DNA of 64,000 bases from a virus (taxonomy: Duplodnaviria > Heunggongvirae > Uroviricota > Caudoviricetes). Made by a program: the position numbers. The stretch lies in IMG/VR virus record IMGVR_UViG_2939521961_000004. The stretch is one strand, 5' to 3'. Position 1 is the first letter of the stretch. The number at the start of each line of letters is the position of its first letter. Below are positions 1 through 3,000 of this stretch, in pieces.

Positions 1-3000
1 TTACCAGTCAATCCAGAGTGGACCGTGTTCAGCGTAAATATAACTGTACACATCCAGATTATATTTGTGGTCTGTTAAGAACAGGCCGCAAATACATGCC
101 GAAGCTTCCAGTGCAGCGGCTCTGTTACTGAATAACCATGTAGCAACATTCCAGCGTTTTTCTGCATCCCAGTCTTTCTCAAGGCCTGATACCATGAAGA
201 AACCGTTAGTGTTGCCATCAAATAATTCTGTTTCCAAATTTTTAAGCAATGCCTGATGGACTCTTGCCAGGTATTCCGCCGGAATTTCGCCACGAATTCT
301 AATGAGATTGTCATAAACAAACATGTTCCCCGCATATGGCGATTTTTCTTTCTTGTTTTTTAAACCAGCATCATGAGCAAACTGATCAATTTCTTCTTCC
401 GTTGGTTTCGTATTGATGTTTTGCGCTGTCGTTTCTGCAATTTTATTTGCCATACTCTCTGAGTCGTGTTTATTTATAGACGCACAGAAATACAATCCGG
501 TAAACGCATCGCGCACATTACGAGCCATATTATCAGTGTCTTTTTTCGTTACCGATTCCAATTCAAGTTCGTTCAGACGATGACGAAGTGTGTGTGCTGC
601 AATCTCCTGGATTGAAGGAGGTAAATCTTTAAATTCCATCGTCAACCTCATCAGTCAGTGTTTCTGGCTAACCAGCGACGCGCGCCAGCTTCAGTTTTAA
701 ACGTTTTGCTTTTGGTATACGTCATCGCGGTGAACGTACCGTCCTGGTTGGGAAACACGCCGCATACCAGAGATTCGTTGTTGCCAAGATTGAGCGTATC
801 CATGTTGACCTCATTCCCCCTTAACGCCGGGTCGCGGAACTAAAAACCTGCTGCGCTGTTATACAAAGTGTTCCCGCCGTCATGTTCATACGCCTCGGGC
901 TGGCTACTTAACCCCTGACCACTGCTTGGTAACTCGAAGTATTGCCCGGCGTTCTGTGGGGCGGGGTGGGTGGTTGGTGTATGTAATCTACAAGTAAAAA
1001 CTGTTTTGTGTCAACAGTTTTTAATTGTTGTTTTGGGCAAAAAAATCCCTCGAAAGAGGGAGTATGAAAATTGTTCAACTCAGATAGAGAAGGGAAATTG
1101 TCGCCGAGAATGTGTCACGCTTACAATCTCAATGCTTGAAGCAGCTACTCTGTACAGGATTATGTAGTTAGGGTGGGTCACGATCTCTCTCAATCCAGAA
1201 ACCCGTTCGCTTGGTGGATATAAGTACGGATGCTCAGATAGAGGTAATACCGATGTTTCAATGCGTATTTTTAGTCTACGTGCTGCCGGTGGGTTCTCCT
1301 TGGCGATGTAAGTTATGATCTGGCGCAAATCATCGCGAGCAGACGGTAGCCATAAAATGGGTAACATTACTCGCTCTTGTTAGTTACAGCAATTTGAGCA
1401 ATAAGATTTTCCATTTCAGCCATTACCTCGTCATGTGGAATTGCGGGGCGAGTGTCTGCAAGGCTTGACGTTACTTTAGTGCGCAACCATTCGTTGTAAC
1501 TGTTTTCTTGTTCGGTAGTTTCGAATTCTGAAACTATCGGAGAAAGGGCTGTACCCATGGCATAACTCCTCTTCTTGTACTGTGGTCACGCCCGGCGGCT
1601 TTTTTGTGCCGCCAGCCACCTAGCAATGGTTTCTTCCATTGATTTTTTCTTGTCTTTGATTTCTTGAAGCATTTTTTCTTGGTCTTCCTCAGGAAACGCA
1701 CTAAAAGCTTGGAGCAGTTCGCGTTGGCGAGGACCAATTTTCATCGTGTCAGGGGTGAAAATTTGCTCACACTCTTCAGGAGGCAATAAAAACCAATGCA
1801 ATGGATGCCCTGAAACCTCAACCAGTTTATCCAAACTTGAGGCTTTAGGTGTAGCCTTACCGCTGACCCATTGTTGAACAGTTTGTTGTGTCACACCAAT
1901 TCTACGGGCAAGCTCAGCCTGGCTCCATCCAGTTTCCTGAAGAAGCTTGCTGATTCTGTACATAGATACTTCTAGGGCGCTCATCATTATTCAATTTTAC
2001 AGGTAAATACTGTTAAAAGCATCACAATAAAAAACTGTTGATTGCATACAGTTTTTTATTGTAGGCTTTGCTTATAGTTTTTAGAGGAGGGCAAAATGCT
2101 AGATAGCACTCGCGAAAAAATTAGGCAGAAATACACTCAGGCTGAAATAGGTCGTTATATGGGGGTCGCTCAACAGACTGTTTGGCAATGGTTTAGCTTT
2201 GGCGTTCCCCCAAAGCAGGTAATTCCGTTATGCCAACTAATGAAGTGGGAAGTTACCCCGCATGAAATCCGCCCAGATATTTATCCTAACCCAACCGACG
2301 GTTTACCTGTTGGATGTAAGGTTAACACATCAAATGCGCCGGAGTTGATTCATGAAAATCAAGCATGAACACATCCGCATGGCGATGAATGCCTGGGCGC
2401 ATCCGGACGGCGAAAAAGTACCGGCTGCGAAAATTACCAAAGCGTATTTCGAGCTGGGAATGACGTTCCCGGAACTGTATGACGACAGCCATCCGGAAGC
2501 CATGGCTCGCAATACTCAGAAAATTTTCCGCTGGGTGGAGAAAGACACTCCTGATGCGGTTAAAAAAATTCAGGCGTTGTTACCAGCGATCGAAAAAGCG
2601 ATGCCGCCTCCGCTGGTGGCCCGAATGCGCAGCCACAGTTCCGCTTATTTTCGGGAGTTGGTAGAGACGAAGGAACGGCTGGTGAAAGATATTGATGATT
2701 TCGTTGCATCAGCGATCGTTCTGTTCGATCAGATGAATCGTGGTGGCCCGGCAGGAAACACTCTGGCTGTGCATTAATTGGGTAATAAATATGAGTAATG
2801 ACAAAAAATTGACACTGAGCGTTTACGAAAACAGTCCGCACATCTGGCGTGGCGGTTTATCTGATGTGGAGCTGGCAGAGTGGTTGATACATAAAGCTAA
2901 TGCGCTGCTCTGGCGTTTGTCAGCCAGAGAACAGCGCAAGGAAACCAGAATAAAGCTGGCTGATGCAGAAGCGTGTGCCGGGCTTATTGAGGATTATACA

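What the first reader, a model, noticed from the sequence alone, without database searches (positions are those of the whole stretch)
996..2057. The two prophages carry different operator motifs, implying distinct immunity specificities
Prophage A has AAAAACTGTT-type inverted repeats on both sides of its immunity region (996..1022, 2001..2057); prophage B has TTACAAAT/ATTTGTAA at 49821..49878 and 51078..51122. The repressors are related in architecture but the operators differ, so the two prophages are probably hetero-immune.
Basis: seen in the sequence. Interest (0 to 1): 0.45.

Follow-up and report, generated by a model that had tools for sequence, protein, structure and literature searches.

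The report
Different operators in two tandem prophages
Two neighbouring lambda-like prophages in this E. coli chromosome each carry their own repressor, Cro-like protein and matching operator sites, so they very probably have separate immunities, which is the ordinary, expected arrangement for co-resident lambdoid prophages.

Summary
AAACTGT-N9-ACAGTTT occurs perfectly only at 998-1020 and 2032-2054. TTACAAAT...ATTTGTAA pairs occur only at 49827-49875 and 51080-51117. Each pair brackets an immunity region: a short DicA/PaaR2-like repressor, a divergent YdaS (Cro-like) gene, YdaT (CII-like) and an embedded toxin-antitoxin cassette. Each pair also overlaps PL- and PR-like promoters.

- Prophage A uses 15-bp, 434-like sites ACAR-N7-YTGT, two at OL and three at OR.
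- Prophage B uses 19-bp sites TTRCAR-N7-YTGYAA, two at OL and three at OR.

Within each prophage the repressor and Cro share a recognition-helix signature (A: QQTV.QW; B: PQ(S/T)(V/I).GW), and the signatures differ between prophages. Matrices built only from relatives recover exactly the cognate window sites. Hetero-immunity is therefore well supported in silico but untested.

Two caveats apply. The two operator families share a CAR-N7-YTG core, and two A sites score moderately with the low-information B matrix. The YdaT operator is identical in both prophages.

This is a new member of a known kind (CP-933P PaaR2/YdaS switch, Qin DicA/DicC, phage 434). Interest is low.

The parts
990..1004 (.). 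Prophage A OL1, 15-bp operator ACAAGTAAAAACTGT. It lies in the spacer of PL and touches the -10 hexamer.
   Evidence: Pattern ACAR-N7-YTGT. Among the top five window hits of the matrix built only from relatives. PL -10 TAGATT at 990->985.
1014..1028 (.). Prophage A OL2, ACAGTTTTTAATTGT, just upstream of the PL -35 hexamer TTGACA (1014->1009).
1046..1061 (-). Terminator-like hairpin plus T-run after parE. Probable end of the repressor-TA operon.
1080..1558 (-). parE-type toxin (1080-1367) and PaaA2-type antitoxin (1367-1558), co-oriented downstream of the repressor.
   Evidence: Pfam ParE_toxin 2.9e-17 and PaaA2 5.6e-19.
1586..1987 (-). Prophage A repressor, 133 aa. It has a 434-like HTH N-domain (helix 3 TQQTVQQW) and a PaaR2-type C-terminal domain, with no S24 peptidase domain. 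Probably leaderless.
1999..2013 (.). Prophage A OR3-equivalent, ACAGGTAAATACTGT. It abuts the putative PRM -10 hexamer TAAAAT (1999->1994).
   Evidence: Identical in L004.
2024..2038 (.). Prophage A OR2-equivalent, ACAATAAAAAACTGT, just upstream of the PR -35 hexamer TTGATT (2038-2043). Its centre is about -44 from the inferred PRM start.
2048..2062 (.). Prophage A OR1-equivalent, ACAGTTTTTTATTGT, in the PR spacer and touching the -10 hexamer TAGGCT (2062-2067).
   Evidence: Substitutions in the 91-98% variants fall in the gap 2039-2047 and not in the sites.
2096..2368 (+). Prophage A Cro-like YdaS, 90 aa, helix 3 AQQTVWQW.
   Evidence: Pfam YdaS_toxin 8e-10. Sequence.
2345..2362 (.). YdaT (CII-like) operator TTGATTCATGAAAATCAA at the ydaS/ydaT junction. 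Identical in prophage B.
   Evidence: Footprinted site of CP-933P YdaT (PMC9986795).
2352..2777 (+). Prophage A YdaT (CII-like), 86% identical to CP-933P YdaT.
49827..49845 (.). Prophage B OL1, 19-bp operator TTACAAATTAAAATTTAAC, overlapping the PL -10 hexamer (49829->49824).
   Evidence: Conserved as yTACAAATTAAAwTTTAA in L008 and L010-L013.
49857..49875 (.). Prophage B OL2, TTTATTATTAAATTTGTAA, upstream of the PL -35 hexamer TTGACC (49852->49847).
49893..49909 (.). Separate palindrome AGTCCCAAAATGGGACT between a -35-like TTGCAT and a -10-like TACTAT in front of higB. Candidate HigA operator, not part of the immunity operators.
   Evidence: Read from the sequence. Conserved in L013 and L008.
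49921..50585 (+). higB toxin (49921-50223) and HTH antitoxin higA (50226-50585), inside the prophage B immunity region.
   Evidence: Pfam HigB_toxin 4.8e-33 and HTH_3.
50632..51024 (-). Prophage B repressor, 130 aa from the ATG at 51024. DicA-like, helix 3 KPQSVQGW, no S24 domain.
51055..51073 (.). Prophage B Oc, CTACAGAAAAAATTGATAA. Third OR site, with a weak right half in E. coli and a good palindrome in Serratia and Sodalis relatives.
51080..51098 (.). Prophage B Oa, TTACAAATAGAAGTTGAAA. Its right half is the PR -35 hexamer TTGAAA (51093-51098).
51099..51117 (.). Prophage B Ob, TTTAAATTTAAATTTGTAA, overlapping the PR -10 hexamer (51116-51121).
51151..51411 (+). Prophage B Cro-like YdaS, 86 aa, helix 3 TPQTISGW.
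51401..51418 (.). YdaT operator TTGATTCATGAAAATCAA, identical to the one in prophage A.
51408..51845 (+). Prophage B YdaT (CII-like).

Best explanation
The repeats are the left (OL) and right (OR) operator clusters of two separate lambda-style immunity switches.

Layout. In each prophage a short, non-cleavable DicA/PaaR2-type repressor is transcribed leftward, together with or next to a toxin-antitoxin cassette. A YdaS-type Cro analogue and a YdaT-type CII analogue are transcribed rightward.

Mechanism (inferred). Repressor dimers bind two sites around the PL -35 hexamer. This shuts off the leftward early operon, which in prophage B includes ydfC, DicF and dicB. They also bind three sites across PR/PRM, which shuts off cro-ydaT and autoregulates the repressor. 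Cro uses the same sites with the opposite preference.

Operator units:
- Prophage A: 15 bp, ACA(A/G)(T/G)-N5-(A/C)(C/T)TGT. This is the phage 434 consensus ACAAT-N4-ATTGT with one extra central base. It would be read by a helix that keeps 434's Gln28, Gln29 and Gln33.
- Prophage B: 19 bp, TT(A/G)CA(A/G)-N7-(C/T)TG(C/T)AA. It would be read by a helix with Pro at position 28 and Gly at position 33.

Consequence. Because helices and operators differ as matched sets, each repressor should silence only its own prophage, which is hetero-immunity.

Status of each step. Shown: sequence, positions, conservation and matrix specificity. Inferred: binding, promoter activity, leaderless translation and immunity.
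For: Gene content and layout.

Motif uniqueness.

Promoter overlap. PL of A has -35 TTGACA and -10 TAGATT. PL and PR of B were also found by the scan. PL(-) and PR(+) of A align over about 45 nt.

Prophage A relatives. Relatives with the same helix (L004 88%, L005 83%, Arsenophonus L017 49% identity) all carry ACAR-N7-YTGT sites at OR and, where the contig reaches it, at OL (L004, L017). The 15-bp length is constant, whereas the gaps between sites are 8-11 nt.

Matrix test for A. A matrix built only from L004/L005 ranks the five A sites as the top five of 64,000 window positions, scoring 17.9-21.8 against 12.5 for the next hit.

Prophage B relatives. Helix VKPQSVQGW is invariant from E. coli to Serratia, Sodalis and Arsenophonus. 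All keep an OR triplet, and L008 and L010-L013 also keep an OL pair of TTRCAR-N7-YTGYAA sites amid diverged flanks.

Matched helices. Repressor and Cro share a helix signature within each prophage and differ between prophages.

434 link. The best solved-structure match of the A repressor is the 434 repressor, with QQ..Q retained. The 434 consensus is ACAATNNNNATTGT (PMC1636474).

Experimental precedent. In CP-933P, PaaR2 and YdaS footprint on OR and repress PL, PR and PRM (PMC8630535).
Against: No binding or repression data exist for these two immunity types.

The B matrix has low information in AT-rich DNA. One unrelated site (55954) scores 19.0, and A site 2046 scores 16.0 in the window scan with the relatives-only B matrix (14.4 with the all-site B matrix). 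A site 1997 scores 12.9 and 10.8 respectively, comparable to B's weaker sites.

Both families share the CAR-N7-YTG core.

PR of A was not found by the consensus scan. Its proposed -10 hexamer TAGGCT is weak and rests on alignment with PL.

PRM of B was not located convincingly.

Only four independent A-type lineages were available.
Confidence: 0.8

Rival explanations
1. The long inverted repeats are themselves the operator units, as the reader described them: AAAAACTGT-N9-ACAGTTTTT in A, and TTACAAAT...ATTTGTAA with 22- or 33-bp spacers in B. Each would be bound by one repressor oligomer.
For: The arms are perfect 9-10 nt matches at both OL and OR of A. PaaR2-type repressors form octamers (PMC8630535), so extended sites are conceivable. 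Jurenas et al. also saw overlapping alternative repeat sets in CP-933P.
Against: In relatives with the same recognition helix the N9 palindrome is broken (L004 OL: ACTGT-N9-ACAAC; L005 OR) or becomes N8 (L017, L005), whereas every 15-bp unit keeps its length. The 'spacer' is the -35 hexamer. In B the half-sites are 30 and 41 bp apart at OR and OL, and each has its own conserved partner half 7 nt away.
Confidence: 0.1
2. The two prophages are not truly hetero-immune. Because both operator families share the RCAR-N7-YTGY core and geometry, one or both repressors bind both operator sets well enough to cross-repress.
For: A site 1997-2015 (TTACAGGTAAATACTGTTA) fits the B consensus with 1 mismatch. 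With the relatives-only B matrix, A sites 2046 and 1997 score 16.0 and 12.9, within the range of B's Oc and OL sites. The DNA-binding domains are about 45% identical.
Against: B sites score -9.8 to 7.3 with the A matrix, against 19.3-23.0 for A's own sites. The discriminating positions are cleanly split: position -1 is T in 45 of 46 B half-sites and unconserved in A; position +1 is A in 24 of 24 A half-sites and variable in B; position +5 is never A in A-type sites and is A in 33 of 46 B half-sites. The helix residues at 434 positions 28 and 33 differ (Q/Q in A, P/G in B). Both immunity types co-occur in tandem in many genomes.
Confidence: 0.1
3. The repeats belong to something other than the CI/Cro switch: LexA boxes, operators of the embedded toxin-antitoxin modules (HigA, PaaA2-ParE2), or chance AT-rich palindromes in promoter DNA.
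For: CTGT...ACAG resembles an SOS box. OL of B lies only about 50 bp upstream of higB, and HigA has an HTH domain.
Against: LexA needs CTGT-N8-ACAG. The A repeats have N9, and no N8 box lies at the operators. PaaA2 has no DNA-binding domain, and a separate regulator controls that operon in CP-933P (PMC8630535). higBA has its own conserved palindrome at 49893-49909. The TTACAAAT sites recur at OR and in relatives that lack higBA (L009-L012). Chance is excluded by the shuffles and by the relatives-only matrices.
Confidence: 0.03

Closest known systems
CP-933P (Sp12) immunity switch of E. coli O157:H7: PaaR2-PaaA2-ParE2 / YdaS / YdaT (Jurenas et al. 2021, PMC8630535; Prolic-Kalinsek et al. 2023, PMC9986795)
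   Same: The layout is the same: PL/OL, parE-paaA-repressor leftward, OR, ydaS-ydaT rightward. Shared features include the PaaA2 and ParE families, a PaaR2-type C-terminal domain in the A repressor (42% over 98 aa), YdaT at 86% identity, an identical YdaT operator, the same conserved PL leader, and a probably leaderless repressor gene.
   Different: The N-terminal DNA-binding domain of the A repressor and the whole Cro protein are unrelated to PaaR2 and YdaS of CP-933P. The CP-933P repeat GTTTAGTAA is absent from the window. Prophage B carries higBA in the opposite orientation instead of paaA-parE.
Phage 434 repressor/Cro and their 14-bp operators (ACAAT-N4-ATTGT consensus)
   Same: The 434 repressor is the best solved-structure match of the A repressor (E 3e-5), and the A repressor's helix 3, TQQTVQQ, compares with 434's TQQSIEQ. 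A's operators keep the outer ACA(A/G) and (C/T)TGT bases and an A/T-rich centre.
   Different: A's sites are 15 bp (N7 between the tetramers), not 14 bp. The repressor has a PaaR2-type C-terminal domain instead of the RecA-cleavable S24 domain. Prophage B has Pro and Gly at 434 positions 28 and 33, and has TT-flanked sites.
Qin DicA/DicC and Rac RacR/YdaS/YdaT modules of E. coli K-12; Gifsy GfoR-type short repressors
   Same: These are also short (about 130 aa) HTH repressors without an autocleavage site. They sit divergently from a Cro-like gene and repress a PL-like promoter that drives dicF/dicB (bioRxiv 10.1101/2023.04.14.536235). Both window repressors align end to end with the NCBIfam DicA model. 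Gifsy repressors appear among the phage hits.
   Different: The scores (50-52 bits) are far below the DicA cut-off of 101 bits. Operator sequences and recognition helices are specific to each type. Control by an antirepressor is presumed here, not shown.
Phage lambda cI/cro/OL/OR (textbook hetero-immunity of lambda, 434, 21)
   Same: Operators lie on both sides of the immunity region. OR is tripartite and overlaps divergent promoters. An accessory cassette sits downstream of the repressor, in the position of rexAB. Immunity modules are exchanged as repressor N-domain plus operators plus cro.
   Different: There is no sequence similarity to lambda CI or Cro and no S24 domain. OL has two recognisable sites rather than three.

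Membership tests
Lambdoid immunity switch (CI / Cro / OL / OR) | Divergently transcribed repressor and Cro-like genes, with a CII-like gene after cro. | tested here: met
   A: 1586-1987(-), 2096-2368(+), 2352-2777(+). B: 50632-51024(-), 51151-51411(+), 51408-51845(+). Pfam HTH_3, YdaS and YdaT; PHROG CII-like.
Lambdoid immunity switch (CI / Cro / OL / OR) | Several related operator sites overlapping PR/PRM, and a second set at PL on the far side of the immunity region. | tested here: met
   A: three sites at OR and two at OL. B: three at OR and two at OL. All overlap -35/-10 hexamers.
Lambdoid immunity switch (CI / Cro / OL / OR) | Repressor and Cro bind the same operators. | not testable with these tools
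   Indirect evidence only: shared helix-3 signatures within each prophage (A: TQQTVQQW and AQQTVWQW; B: KPQSVQGW and TPQTISGW).
Lambdoid immunity switch (CI / Cro / OL / OR) | RecA-stimulated autocleavage domain (Peptidase S24) in the repressor. | tested here: not met
   No S24 hit in Pfam or NCBIfam, and the proteins are 130-133 aa. They belong to the short DicA/PaaR2/Gifsy-type subclass.
PaaR2-PaaA2-ParE2 three-component module (CP-933P type) | PaaA2 antitoxin and ParE toxin downstream of, and co-oriented with, the regulator. | tested here: met
   Prophage A only: PF21217 5.6e-19 and PF05016 2.9e-17.
PaaR2-PaaA2-ParE2 three-component module (CP-933P type) | Regulator homologous to PaaR2 over its DNA-binding domain, with GTTTAGTAA-type operators. 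| tested here: not met
   Only the C-terminal domain aligns. GTTTAGTRA is absent from the window.
Phage 434 immunity type | Helix 3 with Gln28, Gln29 and Gln33. | tested here: met
   Met for A (phmmer alignment to 2r63/1per). Not met for B, which has P, Q, G.
Phage 434 immunity type | 14-bp operators ACAA-N6-TTGT. | tested here: not met
   All 13 A-type sites compiled from the window, L004 and L005, and the four full-length sites among the five top hits in L017, are 15 bp (N7). The 434 consensus is taken from PMC1636474.
DicA subfamily (NCBIfam NF007257) | Score at or above the curated cut-off of 101 bits. | tested here: not met
   51.5 bits (A) and 49.9 bits (B), although both align over nearly the full length of the model.
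LexA (SOS) box | CTGT-N8-ACAG. | tested here: not met
   The A repeats are CTGT-N9-ACAG. The three N8 matches in the window lie elsewhere, at 32290, 33827 and 58760.

The most novel reading that the evidence does not exclude
The two tandem prophages may be only partly insulated from each other. They share an identical YdaT (CII-like) operator. Their CI/Cro operator families also keep a common CAR-N7-YTG core, and two prophage A OR sites (1997-2015, 2046-2064) resemble B-type sites. YdaT of one prophage, and perhaps the B repressor or Cro, could therefore act on the other prophage's switch. That would couple the lysis-lysogeny or toxin-antitoxin expression states of co-resident prophages despite their different nominal immunities.
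Probability: 0.2. Interest if true: 0.45.

Novelty: new member of a known kind. Interest (0 to 1): 0.22.

Why it matters
It matters only modestly.

- It gives concrete, testable operator definitions for two widespread but uncharacterised immunity types of EHEC/STEC prophages. The A type is in 507 of 5,426 complete E. coli genomes, including O157:H7, at 80% coverage or more. The B type is in 148.
- It shows a 434-like DNA-binding domain grafted onto the PaaR2 oligomerisation scaffold.
- It identifies which bases probably discriminate the two specificities.

This helps in predicting which co-resident prophages can cross-repress, or be co-induced, in Shiga-toxin-producing strains. Conceptually it is the textbook picture of modular, hetero-immune lambdoid phages.

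Tried and rejected
- LexA boxes: rejected because the spacing is wrong (N9, not N8) and no N8 box lies at the operators.
- A structured RNA in the conserved PL leader (804-984, minus strand): no Rfam family and fold z-score 0.22.
- HigA or PaaA2 as the binding proteins: higBA has its own conserved palindrome, and the sites also occur at OR and in relatives without higBA.
- Deposited phage genomes: no relative above 55% identity for either DNA-binding domain, so they were of no use for footprinting.
- E. coli genomes for type B: copies are all about 100% identical, so uninformative.
- Big protein index for the A domain: only five hits.
- Genome-contig scan: only one usable A-type relative, L017.
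- Solved structures for the A Cro: none found.
- Consensus promoter scan: it did not find PR of A. PR was placed by aligning it with PL and remains an inference.
- PRM of B: could not be placed with confidence.
- The 2-mismatch A-type hit at 49367, inside a zinc-ribbon ORF of prophage B: treated as chance. It scores below the top 12 with the A matrix.
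Full report
**1. What the window is**

Window positions 600-3400 are 100% identical to E. coli O26:H11 str. 11368 and many other non-O157 EHEC chromosomes. The RefSeq annotation of that strain shows two lambdoid prophages in tandem.
- Prophage A has its integrase next to yccA, just upstream of the window, and runs to about 43 kb.
- An IS3-family element follows (ALIL pseudoknot at 43872-43988).
- Prophage B comes next: integrase, exonuclease at 45509-47959, dicB, DicF RNA at 48602-48653 on the minus strand, ydfC, then its immunity region, replication genes and late genes.

**2. The observation**

- 996-1022 reads AAAAACTGT-TTTGTGTCA-ACAGTTTTT, and 2030-2056 reads AAAAACTGT-TGATTGCAT-ACAGTTTTT.
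- AAACTGT-N9-ACAGTTT matches perfectly only at these two places in 64 kb. With up to two mismatches allowed, 0.21 matches are expected by chance and none of 100 shuffles reaches the three observed.
- Four of the five TTACAAAT octamers in the window form two inverted pairs, at 49827/49868 and 51080/51110.
- TTACAAAT-N15-40-ATTTGTAA matches only there, against an expectation of 0.00.

**3. Gene context**

Prophage A, left to right:
- ParE toxin, 1080-1367, minus strand.
- PaaA2 antitoxin, 1367-1558, minus strand.
- A 133-aa HTH_3 repressor, 1586-1987, minus strand.
- A 108-bp intergenic region.
- A YdaS-family Cro analogue, 2096-2368, plus strand.
- A YdaT-family CII analogue, 2352-2777, plus strand.

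Prophage B:
- HigB (49921-50223) and HigA (50226-50585), plus strand.
- A 130-aa HTH_3 repressor, 50632-51024, minus strand.
- A 126-bp intergenic region.
- YdaS (51151-51411) and YdaT (51408-51845), plus strand.

The two repressors are 31% identical over their full length (E 1e-21), the Cro analogues 51% and the YdaTs 47%. Neither repressor has an S24 peptidase domain. Both align end to end with the NCBIfam DicA model, but far below its cut-off.

This is the layout worked out experimentally for CP-933P of O157:H7. There, PaaR2 (CI-like) and YdaS (Cro-like) footprint on the intergenic region, repress PR, PRM and a PL promoter beyond the TA genes, and give a bistable switch (PMC8630535).

**4. 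Promoters**

The consensus scans gave the following.
- PL of A, minus strand: -35 TTGACA at 1014->1009 and -10 TAGATT at 990->985. A terminator-like hairpin at 1061->1046 lies after parE.
- PL of B, minus strand: -35 TTGACC at 49852->49847 and -10 at 49829->49824.
- PR of B, plus strand: -35 TTGAAA at 51093-51098 and -10 at 51116-51121.

PR of A was not found by the scan. However, PL (minus strand) and the centre of OR (plus strand) align over about 45 nt. That alignment places a -35 TTGATT at 2038-2043 and a -10 TAGGCT at 2062-2067. This is an inference.

A -10-like TAAAAT at 1999->1994 lies 7 nt from the repressor ATG at 1987. This suggests a leaderless mRNA, as shown for paaR2 and lambda cI (PMC8630535). 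It is also an inference.

**5. What the operator units are in prophage A**

The big protein index returned repressors 88% (P0003) and 83% (P0004) identical over the DNA-binding domain. A genome scan found a 49% identical one in Candidatus Arsenophonus triatominarum. All keep helix 3 as (T/S)QQTVQQW, and their Cro partners keep QQ(T/S)V.QW.

Their OR regions, and where the contig reaches it their OL regions (L004, L017), contain sites of the form ACAR-N7-YTGT. The window has exactly five such sites in its operators, at 990, 1014, 1999, 2024 and 2048, and only two elsewhere in 64 kb.

Across the four lineages:
- The 15-bp length never changes.
- The gaps between neighbouring sites vary from 8 to 11 nt.
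In L004 OL it reads ACTGT-N9-ACAAC. It is broken in L005 OR. In L017 the spacing is N8.

The long palindrome in the window is therefore the two facing halves of adjacent 15-bp operators with the -35 hexamer between them.

In 91-98% identical E. coli variants, the substitutions in OR fall only in the gap 2039-2047. In OL the changes fall in the inter-site gap and flanks, plus one at position 5 of OL1, which moves towards the consensus.

A position matrix built only from the L004 and L005 sites ranks the five window sites as the top five of about 64,000 positions, scoring 17.9-21.8 against 12.5 for the next hit. A matrix from all A-type sites finds three OR and two OL sites as the top five in the Arsenophonus locus.

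Relative to the promoters:
- 2048-2062 and 2024-2038 flank the PR -35 hexamer, like lambda OR1 and OR2.
- 1999-2013 abuts the PRM -10 hexamer, like OR3.
- 990-1004 and 1014-1028 flank the PL -35 hexamer.

**6. Link to phage 434**

The best solved-structure match of the A repressor is the 434 repressor N-domain (E 3e-5). TQQTVQQ aligns to 434's TQQSIEQ, so Gln28, Gln29 and Gln33 are retained.

The 434 operators are 14 bp, with conserved outer tetramers and non-contacted centres, and have the consensus ACAATNNNNATTGT (PMC1636474).

The A-type consensus is ACA(A/G)(T/G)-W5-(A/C)(C/T)TGT, which is the same motif with one more central base pair. In 24 half-sites, A1 and C2 are invariant and A3 is present in 23.

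From my knowledge of the 434 co-crystal structures (not tested here), Gln28 reads adenine 1 and Gln29 reads base pairs 2-3. That fits the A-type conservation.

**7. What the operator units are in prophage B**

Homologues of the B repressor at 47-89% identity occur in E. coli, Salmonella, Sodalis, Phlomobacter, Arsenophonus and Serratia. All have an invariant VKPQSVQGW helix.

Six loci were fetched. Their intergenic regions have diverged except for three elements of the form TTRCAR-N7-YTGYAA:
- Oc: window 51055-51073. The right half is weak in E. coli, but it is a near-perfect palindrome CTACAG-N7-CTGTAA in Serratia.
- Oa: window 51080-51098. In Sodalis it is the perfect TTGCAAT-N5-TTTGCAA type.
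- Ob: window 51099-51117. Its left half is the conserved TTTAAA.

A leave-locus-out matrix also finds a pair of sites about 30 bp apart, flanking a conserved GGTCAA (-35 TTGACC), downstream of the immunity region in five of the six loci. These correspond to window 49827-49845 and 49857-49875.

This explains why their separation differs between OR (22 nt) and OL (33 nt).

A matrix built only from L008-L012 ranks 51099 and 51080 first and second in the window. It ranks 49827 fourth, 51055 sixth and 49857 ninth. The separation from background is weaker than for A because the motif is AT-rich.

**8. Do the specificities differ?**

Evidence that they do:
- Within each prophage the repressor and Cro share a helix signature (A: TQQTVQQW and AQQTVWQW; B: KPQSVQGW and TPQTISGW). 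Between prophages, 434 positions 28 and 33 change from Q/Q to P/G.
- The half-site matrices differ at specific positions. Position +1 is A in 24 of 24 A-type half-sites but A/T/G in B. Position -1 is T in 45 of 46 B half-sites but unconserved in A. Position +5 is T/G/C and never A in A-type sites, but A in 33 of 46 B half-sites.
- B's window operators score -9.8 to 7.3 with the A matrix, against 19.3-23.0 for A's own sites in leave-one-out scoring.
- The B matrix finds nothing above 11.4 in the Arsenophonus A-type locus.
- The CP-933P repeat GTTTAGTAA is absent from the window.

Caveats:
- Both families share a CAR-N7-YTG core with identical geometry.
- A site 1997-2015 fits the B consensus with one mismatch.
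- A sites 2046 and 1997 score 14.4 and 10.8 with the all-site B matrix, and 16.0 and 12.9 with the relatives-only B matrix in the window scan. Both lie within the range of B's weaker sites.

Hetero-immunity is thus the best-supported reading. Weak, one-directional cross-recognition cannot be excluded computationally.

**9. Module boundaries**

- A and B are 82% identical in a roughly 160-nt block that ends at the OLs (814-975 against 49657-49815). They become similar again from the 3' end of cro (2246 against 51301).
- B and CP-933P are 97% identical up to 49814.
- The A repressor shares only its C-terminal domain with PaaR2.
- The A Cro shares nothing with CP-933P YdaS.
- The A YdaT is 86% identical to CP-933P YdaT.

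Specificity is therefore exchanged as one cassette: operators, repressor N-domain and cro. This is the classic lambdoid pattern.

**10. Shared CII-level site**

TTGATTCATGAAAATCAA is the inverted repeat footprinted by CP-933P YdaT at the ydaS/ydaT junction (PMC9986795). It is present without mismatch in both prophages, at 2345-2362 and 51401-51418. Cross-activation by YdaT between the prophages is therefore plausible.

**11. Rivals rejected**

- LexA boxes need N8 spacing. The A repeats are N9, and no N8 box lies at the operators.
- higBA has its own conserved palindrome at 49893-49909. The TTACAAAT sites also occur at OR and in relatives that lack higBA.
- The PL leader shows no Rfam match and no folding signal.

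**12. Distribution and novelty**

- The A-type immunity region occurs at 80% coverage or more in 507 of 5,426 complete E. coli genomes. O157:H7 strains carry it at 99.7% identity. It is probably the CP-933M homologue of the paaR-paaA-parE system mentioned in PMC8630535. That identification is an inference.
- The B type occurs in 148 genomes.
- No close relative of either DNA-binding domain is in the deposited-phage collection.
- I found no paper describing these particular operators in the searches I ran.

The principle is textbook: hetero-immune lambdoid prophages with matched repressor, Cro and operator sets. The closest system, CP-933P, is characterised experimentally.

**Verdict**

This is a new member of a known kind, and interest is low.

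Noticed in passing
window 2345-2362 and 51401-51418: The YdaT (CII-like) operator TTGATTCATGAAAATCAA is identical in both prophages and in CP-933P. It spans the stop of ydaS and the start of ydaT. The CII-level control could therefore be shared between prophages whose CI/Cro specificities differ.
   Followed up: partly
window 814-975 and 49657-49815 (also L003, CP-933P): A block of about 160 nt directly abutting both OLs is 82% identical between A and B, and 97% identical between B and CP-933P. It is the 5' leader of the PL transcript, ahead of a DUF1391 gene in prophage A. It has no Rfam family and no folding signal (z = 0.22), and its function is unexplained.
   Followed up: partly
window 49893-49909: The perfect palindrome AGTCCCA-AAA-TGGGACT lies between a -35-like TTGCAT (49887) and a -10-like TACTAT (49909) in front of higB. 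It is conserved in the E. coli (L013) and Salmonella (L008) relatives. It is probably the HigA autoregulatory operator, distinct from the immunity operators.
   Followed up: partly
window 1586-1987 (minus strand) compared with L003 2501-2872: The A repressor is a chimera in evolutionary terms. It has a 434-like HTH N-domain and a PaaR2-type C-terminal domain, with the last 38 residues 28/38 identical to PaaR2. PaaR2's own N-domain is unrelated. The domain swap sits on a conserved oligomerisation scaffold.
   Followed up: yes
window 1963-1999: The first eight codons of the A repressor (MMSALEVS) are conserved as an open frame in relatives (MMTALEVS, MKKAIEIS, MKLTAIEIS), although gene callers start those proteins at the ninth codon. 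A -10-like TAAAAT ends 7 nt before the ATG at 1987, which suggests a leaderless mRNA as for paaR2 and lambda cI.
   Followed up: partly
L017 (Candidatus Arsenophonus triatominarum, NZ_LWMI01000003.1), reverse-complement coordinates 2350-2940: An insect-endosymbiont prophage encodes a 49% identical repressor with the same VTQQTVQQW helix. It carries A-type 15-bp sites at both OR and OL, without a TA cassette. The specificity type is therefore older and wider than E. coli.
   Followed up: yes
window 48602-48653 (-), 8168-8342, 13394-13584, 63413-63585, 13068-13317, 62392-62643: Rfam and ARAGORN find DicF downstream of PL of prophage B, one sok antitoxin RNA, two STnc100 sRNAs, and a Met/Arg/Arg tRNA trio in each prophage. 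These are ordinary cargo of EHEC lambdoid prophages.
   Followed up: no
window 55954-55972: TTTAAAATAATTATTGAAA scores 19.0 with the B-type matrix, third best in the window. It lies at the start of a small ORF in prophage B's early-right region. It is probably an AT-rich chance match, but it could be an extra B operator.
   Followed up: no
window 58147-58709 (minus strand): A second RelE/ParE-ParD toxin-antitoxin pair lies in prophage B, as annotated in the matching RefSeq record. Together with parE/paaA, higBA and hok/sok, the window holds four TA modules.
   Followed up: no
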